Below, one piece after another: positions 12,445 through 18,478 of a stretch of 64,000 bases of DNA. Each line of letters starts with the position of its first letter. Within the stretch, counting starts at the first letter, position 1. The notes under the pieces were generated by a model that was not told where the DNA came from, ran no database searches, and was given only the letters and a program-made list of their open reading frames with translations. Position numbers and translations under genes: made by a program. Origin of the DNA: Dehalococcoidia bacterium (GTDB lineage Bacteria > Chloroflexota > Dehalococcoidia > GIF9 > UBA5629). The stretch lies in the NCBI GenBank assembly GCA_003142375.1, contig PLME01000011.1:81475-145474 (forward strand), written 5' to 3'.

Positions 12445-13173
12445 TTACCGGCAATTGGGGCAGACGTCGAAGAACCCTTTTGGTAGGTCCCATTTCTTGC
12501 GGATGTACTCAAGCTGCTTTTCGGGCGCCCATTCAATGCCGCAGACCTTACATTTTTGCAGCCTGTATTTAATTTTCCAGTTGTAGATATAACGATAACC
12601 TTTTTTATCTTCCATTTTGATAGCGCCGGTCGGGCAGGCGTAGTAGCATGAGCCGCAGCCGATGCATGCCTTGGCGCTTTCGAGATAGGGAGATGCGGGT
12701 CCTTTGGTTATGCCGCGGTTCACCAGGCTGATAGCACTGACACCCACTACCTGCTCACAAACCCTGGCGCAGAGGCCGCAGACAATACAGTTTTCCTTGG
12801 TCCAGTATTCCTTTTCGAAGGATGATTTTTCGATGCCGTATTCAGCCGCCAGCTGCTTAATAACCTTGTTTTCCGAACACCTTGCAAGCAGCAGGTCCAG
12901 CAGCATCTTGCGGTTGCCGACTACCCTGGGGGAATCCGTTTCGACTACCAGGCCTTCCTCAACCGGGAAAAGGCATGAGGTCACAATGCGTTTCCTGGTT
13001 CCACGAGTGATCTCAACGATACATAACCGGCAGGCACCATAGGGTTCTACCGCATCAAGGTTGCATAAAGAAGGTATTTTGATGCCGTGAGCCCTGGCCA
13101 CCTGCAATATATACTGGCCCTTCTCGGCCGTATATTTATTGCCGTTTACAGTCAGAGTAACTAATTCACTCAA
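12445..13173 (-). CDS. NuoG-N-terminal-like polyferredoxin (2Fe-2S + 4Fe-4S clusters), no catalytic domain
   Basis: The likely TTG start at 13173 overlaps the nuoF-like stop by 8 nt; alternative ATG starts are 13203 and 13239. The protein begins VTLTVNGNKYTAEKGQYILQVARAHGIKIPSLC (2Fe-2S) and carries CIVCGLCARVCEQ and CIGCGSCYYACP 4Fe-4S motifs. It ends with a CxxC..CPNC ribbon. Confidence 0.65.
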   Translation of the reverse strand: MSELVTLTVNGNKYTAEKGQYILQVARAHGIKIPSLCNLDAVEPYGACRLCIVEITRGTRKRIVTSCLFPVEEGLVVETDSPRVVGNRKMLLDLLLARCSENKVIKQLAAEYGIEKSSFEKEYWTKENCIVCGLCARVCEQVVGVSAISLVNRGITKGPASPYLESAKACIGCGSCYYACPTGAIKMEDKKGYRYIYNWKIKYRLQKCKVCGIEWAPEKQLEYIRKKWDLPKGFFDVCPNCR

Positions 13174-15025
13174 TCTTAACAGCCCCCAATTTACACACTT
13201 CATAACAGGTGCGGCACTTAATGCATTTAGCCTGATCAAGCACGACCGGCTTTCTTTTGCCCACAGCTGTTATAGCCCCGGCCGGACAGGCTTTGACACA
13301 CAGGCCGCAATCGGGACATTTTTCCTCAATTATCGAGAAGGTGATCAGGTCTTTGCATACGCCGGCCCTGCATTTCTTGAGTTTAATGTGCTCTATGTAT
13401 TCCTCCCTGAAATATTGCATGGTTGTAAGTACCGGGTTGGGTGCTGAGCCGCCCAACTGGCATAGCGCACTATCCCTTAAACAGTGGCCGACTTCTTCCA
13501 GGAGAGGAAGGTCGCTTTCCTTGCCCGCACCGGACGTTATGTCATTTAAAATCTGTCGCATCCTCTTGATGCCTTCGCGACAGGGTACGCATTTACCGCA
13601 TGATTCTTCCTCAAGGAATGAGAGGTAATACTTGGCTATGTCAACCATGCAGTTGTTCTCGTCCATCACGATCATGCCGCCTGATCCCATCATTGAGCCG
13701 ACCTTGGTCAGCGCGTCGAAATCAACAGGCATGTCGAGCATACTCTCCGGCAGGCAACCTCCGGAAGGACCGCCGGTTTGGACGGCCTTGAATTTCTTGC
13801 CTTCGCGAATGCCTCCGCCTATATTAAAAATAATGTCCCGGAGCTGTATGCCCATGGGCACTTCCACCAGGCCAGTATTGTTAACCTTGCCCGTTAGAGA
13901 GAAGATCTTGGTGCCTGTGTTGGTCGGTGTGCCTATCTTCTTGAACCAAGCAGCCCCATTATTGATTATGAGGGGAATATTGGCCCAGGTCTCCACGTTA
14001 TTCAGGTCGCTGGGCCTGTCCCACAACCCTTTTTCCACAGTATGCGTATATTTGGCCCGCGGCTAGCCGACTTTGCCTTCCAGTGATGCCATCAGAGCAG
14101 TGGATTCACCGCAAATAAAGGCGCCGCCACCACGATTGACCCTGACTTCAAAATCGAATCCCGAACCCAGGATATTTTTGCCCAGCAAACCCAATTTCCC
14201 GGCCTGTTCCATGGCATTTATGATGTTCTTCAAGGCTAGCGGGTATTCGTTTCGCACGTAGATATAGCCCTGATGGGAACCTATGGCAAAGGCACCGATA
14301 ATCAAGCCTTCCAGTACGCTATGAGGGTTGCCAGTCAACAGGCCCTCATTGGCATAGGCCCCGGGGTCACCCTCGTCAGCATTGACAATAACGTACTTGA
14401 TATCTCCGTGCGCCTTCCGGCAGCTTTCCCATTTAGCGCCGGTGGTAAACCCACCACCTCCGCGGCCGCGCAGCCCGGATTGCTTAATGATATCGATGAT
14501 TTGCTCGGGCTGATAGTCGAAGAGGGCCTTGGCCAGGGCGGAATATCCGCCTATGGAGATGTAGTCCTCGATGCTAGTCGGATCGATTCTGATATTGTTG
14601 CCCAGGATAATGCGTTTCTGGTTTTTATAGAAAGGCAAATCAGCCTGGGCTGTAATCTCAGCCTTAGTTAACGGGTCTTTGAATAAAAGCCGGCTGATGA
14701 CCTGCTTGTTGAGAACCGTTTTATCCAGAATTTCCGGTACATCTTCCGGCTTTATCTTCTGATAAAAAATATTCCCCGGCTCTACAATGGCAATGGGTCC
14801 CCTTTCGCAGAACCCGTGACAACCTGTTACCTTAAATTCGACCTGGTCGGTCAGGCCTTTTTTATTTATCTCGGCTTTAAAGGCTTCGACAACCGGGTTG
14901 CTGCCATACGGGCGGCAAGCGGTTCCGTTGCAGACCGAAACCCGTGCCTTATCAGTCCCCAGCCCTTTGGCCAGTTTCTTGTTCAGCGCTTCTAGTTCTT
15001 TAGGAGATTTCAGTTTACCCGGCAT
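13166..15025 (-). pseudogene. NuoF-like NAD(P)H-binding flavoprotein, HndC/HydB architecture, interrupted by an in-frame TAG at 14063-14065
   Basis: ORFs 14063..15025 and 13166..14038 are in the same frame. The N-terminal part has a thioredoxin-like 2Fe-2S domain, GGGGF and NADEGDPGA motifs and ends ESTALMASLEGKVG*. The C-terminal part continues PRAKYTHTVEKGLWDRPSDLNNVETWANIP, carries the ESCGKCVPCREG N3-cluster motif and has 2x CxxCxxCxxxCP. The canonical KPPFPA loop is replaced by KYTHTV. Confidence 0.6.
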
Positions 15026-15040
15026 ATCGATAATTCTTCT

Positions 15041-17591: not shown

Positions 17592-17593
17592 GA

Positions 17594-18478
17594 TTATGTT
17601 CCCTCGACCATTTTTATTGCCTGTGTCCAGCATTCATGGGCGCACATCCCACATCCTTTACAATAAAACAGATTAGCCCGGTAATAGCCTTCTTCATTCG
17701 GTTGAATGCATCCCTCGGGGCAAAACAGAGAGCATATTCCGCATTTGATACATTTCTTATCATCCCATACCGGATGCTGAGATTTCCAATCACCGGTGCC
17801 GAACTTTTTGGTATTGCCCGGTTCGGTAACTATGCATCCCACCAGCAACTCGCGCCAGCCCGGAATTTTTTCCATAGGAAATGATTTGGATTTTTTCGTA
17901 CCGGTGGTCGTTATCTGACTTATAACGGTGCTATTGTAAGCGCGCATGCAGGCCTCAAAGTTGGAACTGGCGCGGGCGCCAAACCTTTCATTAAGAGGCG
18001 CCTTTAGGGACTCAAATTTAACTACTTCGGCAGCTTTAACCATGGCTCCCACCATTGTGGTATTAACTATATTGACACCTAACAATTCGCGGGCGATGGA
18101 TGCAGCATCAACTACTGCCAGCTTCCAGTCTCCGCTGAATTCCTGCTGGAGATCTTCGACTGACCGGGTACTATTAACCACCAGACAGCCTCCGGGCTTT
18201 AAACCGTCCGTCACATTTATAAGTGTAACGAGCCCGGGATCCAGGACAACAACTATATCTGGCTTAACTACACCGGATCGAATGCGGATCGGGTTCTCAG
18301 CATCTATCCTGTTGAATGCGAGTACAGGAGCTCCGCGCCTTTCCGGGCCAAAGCTGGGAAAAGCCTGGGCAAATTTCCCCTCGTGTATGGCAGCCAAGGC
18401 AATTAGTTCGGCGGACGTGACAGCACCCTGTCCGCCCCGCCCGTGCCATCGGATTTCAATCGAAGTGTCCTTTTTCAT
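17594..18478 (-). CDS. 2-oxoacid:ferredoxin oxidoreductase fused gamma-delta subunit
   Basis: The gamma domain (GRGGQGAVT) is fused to a delta ferredoxin with CIKCGICSLFCP and CKGCGMCAHEC motifs. Confidence 0.8.
   Translation of the reverse strand: MKKDTSIEIRWHGRGGQGAVTSAELIALAAIHEGKFAQAFPSFGPERRGAPVLAFNRIDAENPIRIRSGVVKPDIVVVLDPGLVTLINVTDGLKPGGCLVVNSTRSVEDLQQEFSGDWKLAVVDAASIARELLGVNIVNTTMVGAMVKAAEVVKFESLKAPLNERFGARASSNFEACMRAYNSTVISQITTTGTKKSKSFPMEKIPGWRELLVGCIVTEPGNTKKFGTGDWKSQHPVWDDKKCIKCGICSLFCPEGCIQPNEEGYYRANLFYCKGCGMCAHECWTQAIKMVEGT

What the first reader, a model, noticed from the sequence alone, without database searches (positions are those of the whole stretch)
12445..18478. 2-oxoacid:ferredoxin oxidoreductase operon runs directly into a NuoE/NuoF(HndC-type)/short NuoG-like flavoprotein module with no hydrogenase or FDH catalytic subunit
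Six consecutive minus-strand genes are packed with gaps of 15 nt or less, or with overlaps:
- porGD stop at 17594-17596, immediately followed by the porA start at 17591
- porA and porB share position 16416
- porB stop overlaps the nuoE-like start at 15487-15490 (ATGA)
- nuoF-like follows 15 nt later
- the nuoG-like TTG start at 13173 overlaps the nuoF-like stop by 8 nt

That layout implies a single transcript. By established knowledge, NuoE-like plus HndC-type NuoF-like subunits form the NAD(P)H-binding diaphorase of electron-bifurcating [FeFe] hydrogenases and NAD-dependent formate dehydrogenases, and OFORs reduce ferredoxin. The third subunit here is only about 243 aa and ends in a CxxC..CxxC ribbon, with no H-cluster or molybdopterin domain. 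My inference is that this is a soluble complex coupling 2-oxoacid oxidation (pyruvate, or a branched-chain/aromatic 2-oxoacid given the surrounding amino-acid uptake genes) to NAD(P)+ reduction, or to Fd/NAD(P)H bifurcation or confurcation. I cannot recognise this genetic fusion as a described system.
Basis: partly seen in the sequence, partly recalled or inferred. Interest (0 to 1): 0.7.

Follow-up and report, generated by a model that had tools for sequence, protein, structure and literature searches.

The report
Por-Bfu pyruvate oxidoreductase–bifurcation module operon

Summary
Six tightly packed minus-strand genes encode PorGD, PorA, PorB, a NuoE-like protein (BfuC), an HndC/HydB-type NuoF-like protein (BfuB) and a 242-aa NuoG/HoxU-like protein (BfuA) with a C-terminal Cys4 ribbon.

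The arrangement is not new. It matches the "Por-Bfu" Type 2 member of the Bfu family predicted by Schut et al. 2022 (PMC9304861). That paper describes it in Dehalococcoides mccartyi 195 as "sandwiched between two tRNA genes"; here they are tRNA-Arg and tRNA-Pro.

The best solved-structure matches for BfuA and BfuB are the WorA and WorB subunits of the bifurcating aldehyde oxidoreductase 9MQX. All BfuB and BfuC cluster ligands are present. BfuA lacks the His-ligated cluster and carries the Zn-finger Cys motif without the WorA terminal helix, as published for Por-Bfu.

The gene order recurs in 22 fetched loci from Dehalococcoidia, Syntrophales/Smithella, SAR324, a Pseudomonadota MAG and a Myxococcales MAG.

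The in-frame TAG in bfuB is a single G-to-T change of a conserved Glu codon. An otherwise identical metagenome contig has GAG, so it is a strain variant or an assembly error.

The likely function is reversible coupling of pyruvate/acetyl-CoA+CO2 to NAD(H) and ferredoxin. I found no biochemical test of it.

The parts
18639..18677 (-). Two overlapping sigma-70-like promoter matches upstream of tRNA-Arg. This is the candidate start of the tRNA-Arg/por-bfu transcript.
   Evidence: both matches score 10 of 12. They are consensus matches only, and the total count in the region is no higher than in shuffles.
18513..18585 (-). tRNA-Arg(CCG), 34 nt upstream of porGD on the same strand. It is the upstream half of the tRNA sandwich.
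   Evidence: The same tRNA lies 19-56 nt upstream of porGD in 9 Dehalococcoidia relatives (gaps computed from the coordinates). The sandwich is described for D. mccartyi 195 in PMC9304861.
17594..18478 (-). porGD: fused POR gamma subunit and delta (2x[4Fe-4S]) subunit, 294 aa.
   Evidence: PF01558 at residues 15-181 and Fer4 dicluster at 236-290. TIGR02175 at 200.8 bits (cut-off 81.1) and TIGR02179 at 90.2 bits (cut-off 60.05). Two CxxCxxCxxxC motifs are visible in the sequence.
16416..17591 (-). porA: POR alpha subunit, 391 aa.
   Evidence: POR_N and PFOR_II. PorA_Arch at 483.7 bits, below its 550-bit cut-off. Relatives give 391-aa products.
15487..16416 (-). porB: POR beta subunit, which binds TPP and the proximal [4Fe-4S] cluster, 309 aa.
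   Evidence: NF008819 pyruvate synthase PorB at 420 bits, above the 405-bit cut-off. GDG...NEAYMNTG TPP motif and Cys25, Cys28, Cys53 and Cys222.
15041..15490 (-). bfuC: NuoE/HydC-like [2Fe-2S] subunit, 149 aa.
   Evidence: PF01257, E = 1.4e-48; the best solved-structure matches are the C subunits of bifurcating enzymes (8A6T_C, 7P5H_C, 7T2R_C, 9MQX_C).
13166..15025 (-). bfuB: HydB/HndC-type NuoF-like flavoprotein, 619 codons, with FMN and NAD(H) sites and the B1-B5 sites.
   Evidence: The best solved-structure match is 9MQX_B (E = 3.5e-233). Ligands mapped from the alignments:
- B5: C32, C37, C69, C73
- B1: C476, C479, C482, C522
- B2 site: C459, T497, H546, C552, C557
- B3/B4: C570, C573, C576, C580 and C601, C604, C607, C611
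14063..14065 (-). In-frame TAG at codon 321 of bfuB. It is a single G-to-T change of a conserved Glu codon.
   Evidence: every POR-linked relative matched has GAG or GAA here. L086 differs from the window by this one base over 6501 nt. TAG is an ordinary stop in the window, ending 15 of 54 ORFs.
12445..13173 (-). bfuA: short NuoG/HoxU/WorA-like subunit, 242 aa. It has the A1 [2Fe-2S] and the A2 and A4 [4Fe-4S] clusters, no A3 cluster, and a C-terminal Cys4 Zn-finger motif with no terminal helix.
   Evidence: invariant C37, C48, C51, C67; C129, C132, C135, C139; C170, C173, C176, C180; C208, C211, C238, C241; 9MQX_A, E = 2e-40, aligned over the full length; 9MQX_A is the top Foldseek match; the published description of Por-Bfu BfuA.
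12297..12372 (-). tRNA-Pro(UGG), 72 nt downstream of bfuA. It is the downstream half of the tRNA sandwich and has its own promoter-like match at 12382-12410.
   Evidence: It is present in the 8 Dehalococcoidia loci that extend far enough.

Best explanation
The locus is an orthologue of the published 'Por-Bfu' operon, a Type 2 member of the BfuABC family of electron-bifurcating enzymes.

Proposed mechanism, most of it inferred:
- PorAB plus the fused PorGD subunit is a TPP-dependent four-subunit-type pyruvate:ferredoxin oxidoreductase.
- Instead of, or in addition to, reducing free ferredoxin, the 2x[4Fe-4S] PorD domain hands electrons to the A4 cluster of the short BfuA subunit.
- Electrons then run A4 to A2 to A1 into the BfuBC core (FMN, B1, B5, C1).
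- Four electrons from two pyruvates are split into one hydride for NAD+ and two low-potential electrons that leave via B3 and B4 to ferredoxin.
- Net reaction: 2 pyruvate + 2 CoA + NAD+ + 2 Fd(ox) <-> 2 acetyl-CoA + 2 CO2 + NADH + H+ + 2 Fd(red).
- Run in reverse, it would make pyruvate from acetyl-CoA and CO2 using NADH plus reduced ferredoxin.

Shown here: gene content, cofactor ligands, nearest solved relatives, conserved synteny, and the tRNA sandwich.

Inferred or taken from the literature: physical association of POR with BfuABC, bifurcation, stoichiometry, direction, and pyruvate as the substrate.

The TAG in bfuB is a one-base strain variant or assembly error, not recoding.
For: - The literature describes the same cluster. 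Por-Bfu in D. mccartyi 195 is flanked by two tRNA genes, is co-expressed, and is found mainly in Chloroflexi and syntrophic Proteobacteria (PMC9304861).
- The window has tRNA-Arg and tRNA-Pro flanks. The same flanks occur in the Dehalococcoidia relatives checked.
- Synteny is conserved in 22 loci across Dehalococcoidia, Syntrophales/Smithella, SAR324, a Pseudomonadota MAG and a Myxococcales MAG.
- A close POR is adjacent in 22 of 45 ribbon-BfuA loci and in 0 of 40 non-ribbon loci.
- BfuB has every feature that separates bifurcating from non-bifurcating homologues: the N-terminal 2Fe-2S domain, the B2-site His and Cys residues, and the C-terminal 2x[4Fe-4S] domain.
- BfuA aligns over its full length with WorA of the bifurcating WorABCSL enzyme, 9MQX_A (E = 2e-40; top Foldseek hit).
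- BfuA lacks the A3 cluster and has the Zn-finger motif without the terminal helix, as stated for Por-Bfu.
- BfuA has no catalytic domain, so it needs an electron-donating partner. POR is the only candidate encoded in the cluster.
- PorB passes the pyruvate-synthase equivalog cut-off.
- The genes overlap or lie 15 nt or less apart. Internal promoter and terminator matches do not exceed chance.
- For the TAG: L086 is identical apart from GAG at that codon, and dN/dS downstream of the TAG against L001 is 0.007.
Against: - I found no biochemical or structural data for any Por-Bfu. Only two papers in the searched library use the term, and both treat the enzyme as uncharacterised.
- A D. mccartyi complexome study reports PorA, PorB and PorG co-migrating but does not mention NuoEF-like partners. 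This is weak negative evidence.
- Pyruvate (E0' about -500 mV) can reduce both ferredoxin and NAD+ on its own. Schut et al. acknowledge that the need for bifurcation is unclear.
- Por-Bfu BfuA lacks the C-terminal helix that docks the partner subunit in WorABCSL, so the docking mode is unknown.
- PorA and PorC score below their equivalog cut-offs, so a related 2-oxoacid is not excluded.
- In this assembly bfuB is interrupted by a TAG.
Confidence: 0.6

Rival explanations
1. Two separate enzymes are merely co-transcribed. One is an ordinary ferredoxin-dependent POR. The other is a free BfuABC module that exchanges electrons between the ferredoxin pool and NAD(H), or works with an unidentified third partner. 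The net effect would be pyruvate-to-NADH transfer through soluble ferredoxin, with no physical complex.
For: - POR is complete and self-sufficient in domain content.
- Por-Bfu BfuA lacks the WorA docking helix.
- The complexome study reports only Por subunits co-migrating.
- In Syntrophales loci the porB-bfuC gap is about 100 nt rather than an overlap (coordinates).
Against: - The association of POR with the ribbon type of BfuA is tight and specific across phyla (22 of 45 loci vs 0 of 40).
- Start and stop codons overlap at the porB/bfuC junction in the window.
- Every characterised Bfu enzyme needs a third-substrate module feeding BfuA, and none other is encoded here.
- No hydrogenase or formate dehydrogenase catalytic gene was found among the 37 window ORFs scanned, which include every ORF of 390 aa or more.
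Confidence: 0.2
2. A single complex forms, but it does not bifurcate. The BfuABC module acts as a simple diaphorase, making the enzyme a pyruvate:NAD+ oxidoreductase. This would be analogous to the NAD+-dependent phenylglyoxylate dehydrogenase PadEFGHI.
For: - Pyruvate oxidation is exergonic with NAD+ alone, a point acknowledged.
- OFORs with a built-in NAD-linked subunit exist as a class: NCBIfam has Pad models, and the POR subunits hit them weakly.
- L050 and L058 pair POR and a ribbon BfuA with a GltD/NfnB-like flavoprotein instead of BfuBC. This shows that a pyridine-nucleotide-linked flavoprotein other than BfuBC can occupy this position.
Against: - BfuB keeps all ligands of the sites that are absent from characterised non-bifurcating homologues: the N-terminal 2Fe-2S domain, the B2-site His546/Cys residues, and the C-terminal ferredoxin-type domain thought to bind ferredoxin.
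Confidence: 0.12
3. The NuoE/NuoF/short-NuoG-like proteins serve an enzyme encoded elsewhere. [quoted passage not shown] On this view the adjacency to por is incidental.
For: - Dehalococcoides encodes a complex I-like enzyme without its NADH-input module.
- HoxU and NuoE/F/G models are among the strongest NCBIfam hits.
Against: - All of those hits fall below the curated cut-offs: HoxU 128.8 vs 333, NuoG 78 vs 470, and the two NuoF halves 207 and 234 vs 559.
- Synteny with POR is conserved in lineages as far apart as Dehalococcoidia, Syntrophales and SAR324.
- The BfuA subtype is specifically POR- or OFOR-linked.
- BfuA lacks the A3 cluster and the C-terminal domain used by the hydrogenase and FDH types.
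Confidence: 0.05
4. In this particular genome the module is inactivated. The TAG is a genuine nonsense mutation that truncates BfuB after 320 residues, leaving a conventional ferredoxin-dependent POR. This rival concerns only the state of this copy, not what the system is.
For: - The TAG is in the assembled sequence.
- TAG is a normal stop in the window.
- The exact 320-aa fragment is on record from only one contig.
- A short-read contig from another sample ends exactly at the variant base, as expected at a polymorphic site.
Against: - It is the only difference in 6501 nt from L086, which has GAG; L087 also has GAG.
- There are no further lesions. dN/dS downstream of the TAG is 0.007 against L001, so any inactivation is very recent.
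- A consensus or sequencing error explains the data equally well.
Confidence: 0.3

Closest known systems
Por-Bfu (Type 2 BfuABC-family enzyme) of Dehalococcoides mccartyi 195 and syntrophic Proteobacteria, predicted by Schut et al. 2022 (PMC9304861)
   Same: - Gene content matches: four POR subunit functions plus BfuC, BfuB and BfuA.
- BfuA has only the A1, A2 and A4 clusters plus a Zn-finger motif and no terminal helix.
- The operon sits between two tRNA genes.
- The host is in the Dehalococcoidia.
- The B2-region motifs match the 'Dm Por' row of the paper's supplementary alignment.
   Different: - The host is an uncultured Dehalococcoidia lineage, not D. mccartyi.
- PorG and PorD are fused here, giving six genes. 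I did not check whether they are separate genes in D. mccartyi.
- This assembly has a TAG in bfuB.
- Orthology to the D. mccartyi genes themselves could not be tested directly, because no D. mccartyi locus was among those fetched.
WorABCSL, the electron-bifurcating tungsten aldehyde oxidoreductase of Acetomicrobium mobile (PDB 9MQX; PMC12318220)
   Same: - It is the closest solved structure for BfuA (E = 2e-40, full length) and for BfuB (E = 3.5e-233).
- Both BfuA subunits are short, lack the A3 cluster and have a C-terminal Cys4 Zn finger.
- BfuB shares the unusual PR-x-KY-x-H motif in place of PRPRPPFP.
- In both, electrons are thought to enter through A4 from an extra catalytic module.
   Different: - The catalytic module here is a TPP-dependent POR, not a tungstopterin WOR with a WorS polyferredoxin nanowire.
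- BfuA here ends one residue after the last Cys and lacks the WorA helix that recruits WorS.
HydABC-type electron-bifurcating [FeFe]- and [NiFe]-hydrogenases (7P5H, 8A6T, 7T2R)
   Same: The BfuBC core is homologous, with the same cofactor ligands. The N-terminal part of BfuA is homologous to the N-terminus of HydA.
   Different: There is no H-cluster domain and no NiFe subunits. BfuA lacks the His-ligated cluster (A3) and the whole C-terminal catalytic domain.
HoxEFU diaphorase of bidirectional [NiFe] hydrogenases
   Same: It has a three-subunit NuoE/F/G-like module with a HoxU-sized third subunit (profile length 238). HoxU is among the best NCBIfam hits (E = 2e-37).
   Different: - The score is far below the HoxU cut-off (128.8 vs 333).
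- The profile match covers query residues 4-187 only, so it does not include the C-terminal Cys4 ribbon.
- No hoxYH genes are present.
- BfuB has the extra N- and C-terminal Fe-S domains of the bifurcating type.
NADH-dependent phenylglyoxylate dehydrogenase PadEFGHI, an OFOR with a built-in NAD-linked subunit
   Same: The concept is the same: a multi-subunit 2-oxoacid:acceptor oxidoreductase wired to a pyridine nucleotide. The POR subunits hit the PadE, PadF, PadG and PadI models.
   Different: All Pad hits are well below their cut-offs (157.6/300, 63.7/150, 313/700, 235.7/700). The NAD-linked module here is BfuABC, so this is a functional analogue only.

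Membership tests
Bfu (BfuABC) electron-bifurcating family | BfuB has a NuoF-type FMN/NAD(H) core with the B1 [4Fe-4S] cluster | tested here: met
   Complex1_51K, SLBB and NADH_4Fe-4S domains. GRGGGGF and NADEGDPGA loops are present. C476, C479, C482 and C522 align with the B1 ligands of 9MQX_B, 7T2R_B and 8A6T_B.
Bfu (BfuABC) electron-bifurcating family | BfuB has an N-terminal thioredoxin-like [2Fe-2S] domain (B5), which is absent from non-bifurcating homologues | tested here: met
   PF01257 hit at residues 26-102. C32, C37, C69 and C73 are conserved against the solved BfuB chains. 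The criterion is from PMC9304861.
Bfu (BfuABC) electron-bifurcating family | BfuB has the B2 site ligands: His plus Cys residues, with the residue at the position of NiFe-enzyme C476 being either Cys or Thr | tested here: met
   Mapping onto 7T2R_B residues C438, C476, H525, C531 and C536 gives C459, T497, H546, C552 and C557.
Bfu (BfuABC) electron-bifurcating family | BfuB has a C-terminal 2x[4Fe-4S] ferredoxin-type domain (B3, B4) | tested here: met
   C570, C573, C576, C580 and C601, C604, C607, C611. Fer4 family hits in the C-terminal half.
Bfu (BfuABC) electron-bifurcating family | BfuC is a NuoE-like subunit with one [2Fe-2S] cluster (C1) | tested here: met
   PF01257, E = 1.4e-48. The best PDB matches are C subunits of bifurcating enzymes. 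The CLGTAC and CMGCC motifs are visible in the query line of the alignment to 8A6T_C.
Bfu (BfuABC) electron-bifurcating family | Coupled reduction of NAD+ and ferredoxin by a third substrate (bifurcating activity) | not testable with these tools
   This requires enzyme assays. None has been published for any Por-Bfu in the searched library.
Por-Bfu (Type 2, BfuB clades 35/44/45) | BfuA has the A1, A2 and A4 clusters only, with no A3 cluster and no A5-containing C-terminal domain | tested here: met
   Cys motifs for one [2Fe-2S] and two [4Fe-4S] clusters are invariant across 13 homologues. Only one Cys (C99) remains where HxxxCxxCxxxxxC would lie.
Por-Bfu (Type 2, BfuB clades 35/44/45) | BfuA has the C-terminal Zn-finger motif but lacks the WorA C-terminal helix | tested here: met
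   C208, C211, C238 and C241 are invariant and align with the WorA CPICG...CPTCR motif. The protein ends at residue 242, one residue after the last Cys. Zn binding itself was not tested.
Por-Bfu (Type 2, BfuB clades 35/44/45) | Genes for the four POR subunit functions lie in the same cluster as bfuCBA | tested here: met
   porGD (a gamma-delta fusion), porA and porB lie immediately upstream, with overlaps or gaps of 15 nt or less. The order is conserved in 22 loci.
Por-Bfu (Type 2, BfuB clades 35/44/45) | The operon is flanked by two tRNA genes, as described for D. mccartyi 195 | tested here: met
   tRNA-Arg(CCG) at 18513-18585 and tRNA-Pro(UGG) at 12297-12372. The same pair is present in the Dehalococcoidia relatives checked.
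Por-Bfu (Type 2, BfuB clades 35/44/45) | All subunit genes are intact | tested here: inconclusive
   bfuB has a TAG at codon 321 in the window. L086, identical over the 6501 nt compared apart from this one base, has GAG and an intact 619-aa product.
Por-Bfu (Type 2, BfuB clades 35/44/45) | POR and BfuABC form a physical complex | not testable with these tools
   The structure tool predicts single chains only. A published complexome reports Por subunits only.
Four-subunit pyruvate:ferredoxin oxidoreductase (PorABCD) | Curated equivalog or subfamily scores for each subunit | tested here: inconclusive
   Above cut-off: PorB equivalog (420 vs 405), PorC_KorC subfamily (200.8 vs 81.1) and PorD_KorD subfamily (90.2 vs 60.05). 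Below cut-off: PorA_Arch (483.7 vs 550) and the PorC equivalog (203.1 vs 225). Pyruvate is favoured as the substrate but not proven.
Four-subunit pyruvate:ferredoxin oxidoreductase (PorABCD) | TPP-binding motif and Fe-S ligands | tested here: met
   GDG-x26-NEAYMNTG and four Cys in PorB. Two CxxCxxCxxxC motifs in the PorD domain.
HoxEFU diaphorase of bidirectional [NiFe] hydrogenase | HoxU and HoxE equivalog scores, and adjacent hoxYH genes | tested here: not met
   HoxU scores 128.8 vs a 333-bit cut-off, and HoxE 127.8 vs 224. The ORFs flanking the cluster and the other window ORFs scanned gave no hydrogenase-family hit.
Respiratory complex I N-module (NuoEFG) | NuoF and NuoG equivalog scores, and nuo gene context | tested here: not met
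   The two halves of the NuoF-like protein score 207.5 and 233.8 vs a cut-off of 558.65. NuoG scores 78.4 vs 470. No nuo genes are adjacent. BfuB carries extra N- and C-terminal Fe-S domains.
NADH-dependent phenylglyoxylate dehydrogenase (PadEFGHI) | Pad equivalog scores | tested here: not met
   PadE 157.6/300, PadF 63.7/150, PadG 313/700 and PadI 235.7/700. Whether a PadH-like subunit exists was not tested separately; the cluster's only NAD-linked module is BfuCBA.

The most novel reading that the evidence does not exclude
The link between OFORs and the short, ribbon-bearing BfuA may be a broader modular system than the 12 'Por' sequences counted in 2022.

- POR-linked BfuB sequences fall into at least three separate groups in a rough neighbour-joining tree.
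- A further BfuB clade sits next to three-subunit OFORs with alpha, beta and gamma subunits of 361, 258 and 184 aa and only 25-29% PorA identity (L029, L034, L036, L037, L040, L048, L065).
- In L050 and L058, PorGDAB plus a ribbon BfuA-like protein is paired with a NuoF-C-terminal/GltD-like flavoprotein in place of BfuBC.

If these are real complexes, the ribbon BfuA is a general adaptor that plugs 2-oxoacid oxidoreductases into different pyridine-nucleotide modules. The window's enzyme would then be the first TPP-dependent bifurcating enzyme class awaiting proof. I could not establish whether clades 35 and 44 of Schut et al. already cover these variants.
Probability: 0.35. Interest if true: 0.5.

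Novelty: already known. Interest (0 to 1): 0.3.

Why it matters
Por-Bfu has been predicted but, as far as I could find, never purified. If it works as proposed, it would tie the central pyruvate/acetyl-CoA node directly to both the NADH and ferredoxin pools. That matters in energy-limited anaerobes such as Dehalococcoidia and syntrophs, and would affect how carbon assimilation and redox balance are modelled in them.

This window adds only another orthologue. The useful additions are:
- an exact ligand map for BfuB and BfuA;
- evidence that the POR/ribbon-BfuA link is specific and spans several phyla;
- evidence that the tRNA-Arg/tRNA-Pro sandwich is conserved across Dehalococcoidia;
- resolution of the amber codon as a one-base variant rather than recoding or long-standing decay.

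Tried and rejected
- **TAG recoding or pyrrolysine:** rejected. TAG ends 15 of 54 ORFs in the window. Relatives encode Glu at the position. An otherwise identical contig has GAG.
- **A second in-frame TAG at 25657/25658:** rejected. The two ORFs are unrelated genes, one with a PHP domain and one a formyltransferase.
- **Branched-chain or aromatic 2-oxoacid substrate inferred from neighbouring genes:** rejected. The flanks are not conserved between relatives, and a separate IorAB cluster exists in the window.
- **HoxEFU, NuoEFG or Pad membership:** rejected on curated score cut-offs.
- **Internal promoter or terminator:** the consensus scan gave no signal above shuffled sequence. This scan is weak evidence for a Chloroflexota genome.
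- **AlphaFold model of BfuA:** confidence was only moderate (mean pLDDT 64.5; residues 122-181 below 50). I used the Foldseek result only as agreement with the sequence match, not for geometry.
- **Literature searches that found nothing:** the D. mccartyi locus tags DET0728-0730. Mansfeldt et al. 2014 is not held in the library.
- **Direct comparison with the D. mccartyi operon:** not possible. The single genome-contig scan returned no D. mccartyi locus among its best 80.

Full report

Yes.
- porGD is at 17594-18478.
- porA starts at the ATG at 17591, 2 nt after the porGD stop. Relatives also have 391-aa products.
- The porA stop and the porB GTG share base 16416.
- The porB stop and the next start overlap as ATGA at 15487-15490.
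- A 15-nt gap precedes the NuoF-like gene (13166-15025).
- The TTG at 13173 of the last gene overlaps that gene's stop by 8 nt.

Pfam and NCBIfam give these products:
- POR gamma fused to a 2x[4Fe-4S] delta domain;
- POR alpha;
- the TPP-binding POR beta;
- a NuoE-like [2Fe-2S] protein;
- a NuoF-like protein with an extra N-terminal thioredoxin-like 2Fe-2S domain and a C-terminal 2x[4Fe-4S] domain;
- a 242-aa protein with a NuoG-type 2Fe-2S domain, two CxxCxxCxxxC motifs and a terminal CxxC...CxxC.

No H-cluster or molybdopterin domain was found. The NuoF-like gene has one in-frame TAG at 14063-14065. The cluster is bracketed by tRNA-Arg(CCG) at 18513-18585 and tRNA-Pro(UGG) at 12297-12372, both on the same strand.

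**2. Is it more than chance?**

The last protein has 2596 database homologues. The closest 120 (65-97% identity, 238-253 aa) are mostly unnamed; the few that carry an organism name come from Chloroflexi or Dehalococcoidia MAGs.

Contigs carrying them show the same six genes in the same order, although the flanking genes differ.

A scan of species-representative genomes, followed by tblastn with all six window proteins, gave these results:
- A close POR (PorB 57-97% identical) lies directly upstream of the NuoE-like gene in 22 of the 45 loci whose NuoG-like match extends through the C-terminal ribbon.
- The same is true of 0 of the 40 loci whose match stops near residue 186. Those are presumably longer HydA-, NuoG- or Fdh-type proteins.
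- A few of the 85 loci are duplicates of one contig (L004 = L011; L002 is very similar to L003).
- The POR-linked loci come from Dehalococcoidia, Syntrophales/Smithella, SAR324, a Pseudomonadota MAG and a Myxococcales MAG.

A consensus scan found no excess of promoter-like or terminator-like sites inside the cluster. The best promoter-like matches lie upstream of tRNA-Arg.

**3. What is it?**

The three flavoprotein-module subunits find their best solved-structure relatives among electron-bifurcating Bfu enzymes.
- The 242-aa protein aligns end to end with chain A of 9MQX (E = 2e-40).
- The NuoF-like protein aligns with 9MQX chain B (E = 3.5e-233).
- The NuoE-like protein aligns with HydC of 8A6T, 7P5H and 7T2R, and with 9MQX chain C.

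9MQX is the bifurcating tungsten aldehyde oxidoreductase WorABCSL of Acetomicrobium mobile (PMC12318220).

I mapped published ligand positions through the printed alignments. The NuoF-like protein (BfuB) has:
- B5 ligands C32, C37, C69, C73;
- B1 ligands C476, C479, C482, C522;
- B2-site residues C459, T497, H546, C552, C557 (Thr at the second position is found in about two-thirds of BfuB sequences);
- B3/B4 ligands C570, C573, C576, C580 and C601, C604, C607, C611.

According to Schut et al. 2022, non-bifurcating homologues lack B2-B5.

The short subunit (BfuA) keeps these Cys sets, all invariant in 13 homologues:
- the 2Fe-2S ligands C37, C48, C51, C67;
- two 4Fe-4S motifs, C129, C132, C135, C139 and C170, C173, C176, C180;
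- a terminal Cys4 set, C208, C211, C238, C241.

BfuA has lost the HxxxCxxCxxxxxC motif of the His-ligated cluster (A3). Its terminal Cys4 set aligns with the WorA zinc-finger cysteines.

An AlphaFold model was only moderately confident (pLDDT 64.5). Its top Foldseek hit was again 9MQX_A.

**4. Comparison with the literature**

Schut et al. 2022 (PMC9304861) defined the BfuABC family and listed "Por-Bfu" among uncharacterised Type 2 members. Their description includes:
- four POR subunits plus BfuABC;
- a BfuA with only the A1, A2 and A4 clusters;
- a location in D. mccartyi 195 "sandwiched between two tRNA genes";
- co-expression across growth phases;

The 2025 WorABCSL structure paper adds that the WorA homologue of Por-Bfu has the Zn-finger motif but lacks the C-terminal helix. 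That is what the window shows: the protein ends one residue after the last Cys.

The tRNA-Arg ... tRNA-Pro sandwich is present in the Dehalococcoidia loci I checked: all nine have tRNA-Arg, and the eight that extend far enough have tRNA-Pro. It was absent from the seven Syntrophales, Smithella, SAR324 and Pseudomonadota loci checked.

The paper's supplementary alignment row for "Dm Por" matches the window's B1/B2 region motif for motif.

Only two papers in the searched library use the term Por-Bfu, and neither reports purification.

**5. The amber codon**

- TAG is an ordinary stop in this window, ending 15 of 54 ORFs.
- All POR-linked relatives matched have GAG or GAA (Glu) at the position. 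A few other family members have Met, Val, Arg or Gly.
- dN/dS against the 97%-identical relative L001 is 0.044 upstream and 0.007 downstream of the TAG (2 non-synonymous vs 60 synonymous differences), so the downstream half has been under strong purifying selection.
- The exact BfuC and PorGD proteins of the window occur on several contigs, but the 320-aa truncated product occurs on only one.
- L086, from a JGI metagenome, has the same flanking genes. It is identical to the window over 6501 nt except for this single base and encodes an intact 619-aa BfuB.
- L087 also has GAG.
- A short-read contig (L088) ends exactly at the base before the variant.

The TAG is therefore a strain-level nonsense variant or a consensus error. 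It is not recoding, and the gene is not an old pseudogene.

**6. Substrate**

- PorB passes NCBIfam's pyruvate-synthase equivalog cut-off (420 vs 405). It scores lower on the 3-methyl-2-oxobutanoate dehydrogenase beta model NF008818 (359 vs 405).
- PorA and PorC fall short of their equivalog cut-offs.
- PorB has the TPP motif and four Cys.
- The window has its own IorA-IorB-aminotransferase-acyl-CoA ligase-ABC transporter cluster at 37558-47196.
- No hydrogenase or formate dehydrogenase catalytic subunit was found among the 37 window ORFs scanned, which include all ORFs of 390 aa or more.

**7. Mechanism and rivals**

Most likely (0.6, with identification as a Por-Bfu operon much more certain than the mechanism): electrons from TPP-dependent pyruvate oxidation pass through the PorB and PorD clusters to A4. 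They then run A4 to A2 to A1 into the BfuBC core. There, four electrons are divided between NAD+ (a hydride at FMN) and ferredoxin (via B3/B4). The reaction is reversible, so it could also support pyruvate synthesis.

Only the parts list, the ligands and the synteny are shown here. Complex formation, bifurcation and direction are inferred from characterised relatives.

The rivals are:
- two co-transcribed but separate enzymes (0.2);
- a single non-bifurcating pyruvate:NAD+ oxidoreductase (0.12);
- a module serving an enzyme encoded elsewhere, such as the NuoEFG-less complex I-like enzyme (0.05).

Points against the main model:
- there are no biochemical data;
- a complexome study reports only Por subunits co-migrating;
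- the WorA docking helix is absent;
- thermodynamically, pyruvate can reduce either acceptor alone, as acknowledged.

**8. Side observations**

- A rough neighbour-joining tree of BfuB (no support values) places POR-linked sequences in three separate groups: Dehalococcoidia, a Smithella/SAR324/Pseudomonadota group, and a second Syntrophales group. This fits the paper's "clades 35, 44 and 45".
- A further clade sits beside three-subunit OFORs whose alpha, beta and gamma subunits are 361, 258 and 184 aa in L040.
- In L050 and L058, POR and a ribbon BfuA-like protein flank a NuoF-C-terminal/GltD-like flavoprotein in place of BfuBC.

These suggest that the ribbon BfuA is a general OFOR adaptor. 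I could not tell whether this is already covered by the published survey.

**9. Verdict**

Novelty is "already known" and interest is 0.3. The enzyme itself remains an attractive, untested biochemical target.

Noticed in passing
window 14063-14065; L086 5425-5427; L088 contig end: The TAG in bfuB is the only difference in 6501 nt between the window and a JGI metagenome contig (L086), which has GAG. A short-read Logan contig from another sample ends exactly at the base before the variant, which looks like an assembly-graph break at a polymorphic site.
   Followed up: yes
window 12297-12372 and 18513-18585; L001, L002, L005, L007-L010, L012, L013: tRNA-Arg(CCG) lies 19-56 nt upstream of porGD and tRNA-Pro(UGG) about 70 nt downstream of bfuA, on the same strand, in the Dehalococcoidia loci checked. 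Neither is present in the Syntrophales, SAR324 or Pseudomonadota loci. The short gap leaves no room for a separate por promoter, so co-transcription with tRNA-Arg is likely.
   Followed up: partly
window 37558-47196 (+): The window holds a second, separate 2-oxoacid oxidoreductase route. It consists of IorA-like (609 aa, POR_N + TPP_enzyme_C), IorB-like (POR domain), a class I/II aminotransferase, an AMP-binding ligase and a branched-chain-type ABC transporter (Peripla_BP_6, BPD_transp_2). It probably handles amino-acid-derived 2-oxoacids.
   Followed up: partly
L040 3403-9768 (also L029, L034, L036, L037, L048, L065): In L040 a three-subunit OFOR (alpha 361 aa, beta 258 aa, gamma 184 aa) is followed by BfuC, BfuB and a ribbon-type BfuA. 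The other loci show only a distant PorA-like match (25-29% identity) upstream. The BfuB sequences of all seven form their own clade in a rough neighbour-joining tree.
   Followed up: partly
L050 3956-9714 and L058 3947-9708: PorGDAB is followed by a 632-aa protein (L050; scanned) and a ribbon BfuA-like protein, with no NuoE/NuoF-type BfuBC. The 632-aa protein has NADH_4Fe-4S + Fer4_20 + Pyr_redox_2 domains and is GltD/NfnB-like. This may be an NAD(P)-linked, non-Bfu variant of the same idea.
   Followed up: partly
L001 3581-4757 and 6148-8008; L004/L011 bfuB and porB; L013 porGD and porB: Several long-contig MAGs, including those labelled MFD, show split porA, porB or bfuB genes caused by single-base indels. 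These look like assembly errors rather than decay. They are a caution for calling pseudogenes in these assemblies.
   Followed up: partly
window 25001-25657 and 25658-26488 (+): Two ORFs abut in the same frame across a TAG, which could look like a second in-frame amber codon. They are unrelated genes, one with PHP/PHP_C domains and one with a formyltransferase domain, so the junction is an ordinary stop.
   Followed up: yes
window 5281-9985, 32066-36824, 43120-47196; 10586-12259, 30459-32015, 41217-43109: The 64-kb window holds two confirmed branched-chain-type ABC uptake systems (32066-36824 and 43120-47196) and probably a third at 5281-9985, where only the binding protein was scanned. It also holds three AMP-binding acyl-CoA ligases, an ADP-forming acyl-CoA synthetase-like gene (49293-50738) and an H+-pyrophosphatase (57635-59779). 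This suggests an amino-acid or organic-acid fermenting lifestyle rather than obligate organohalide respiration.
   Followed up: no
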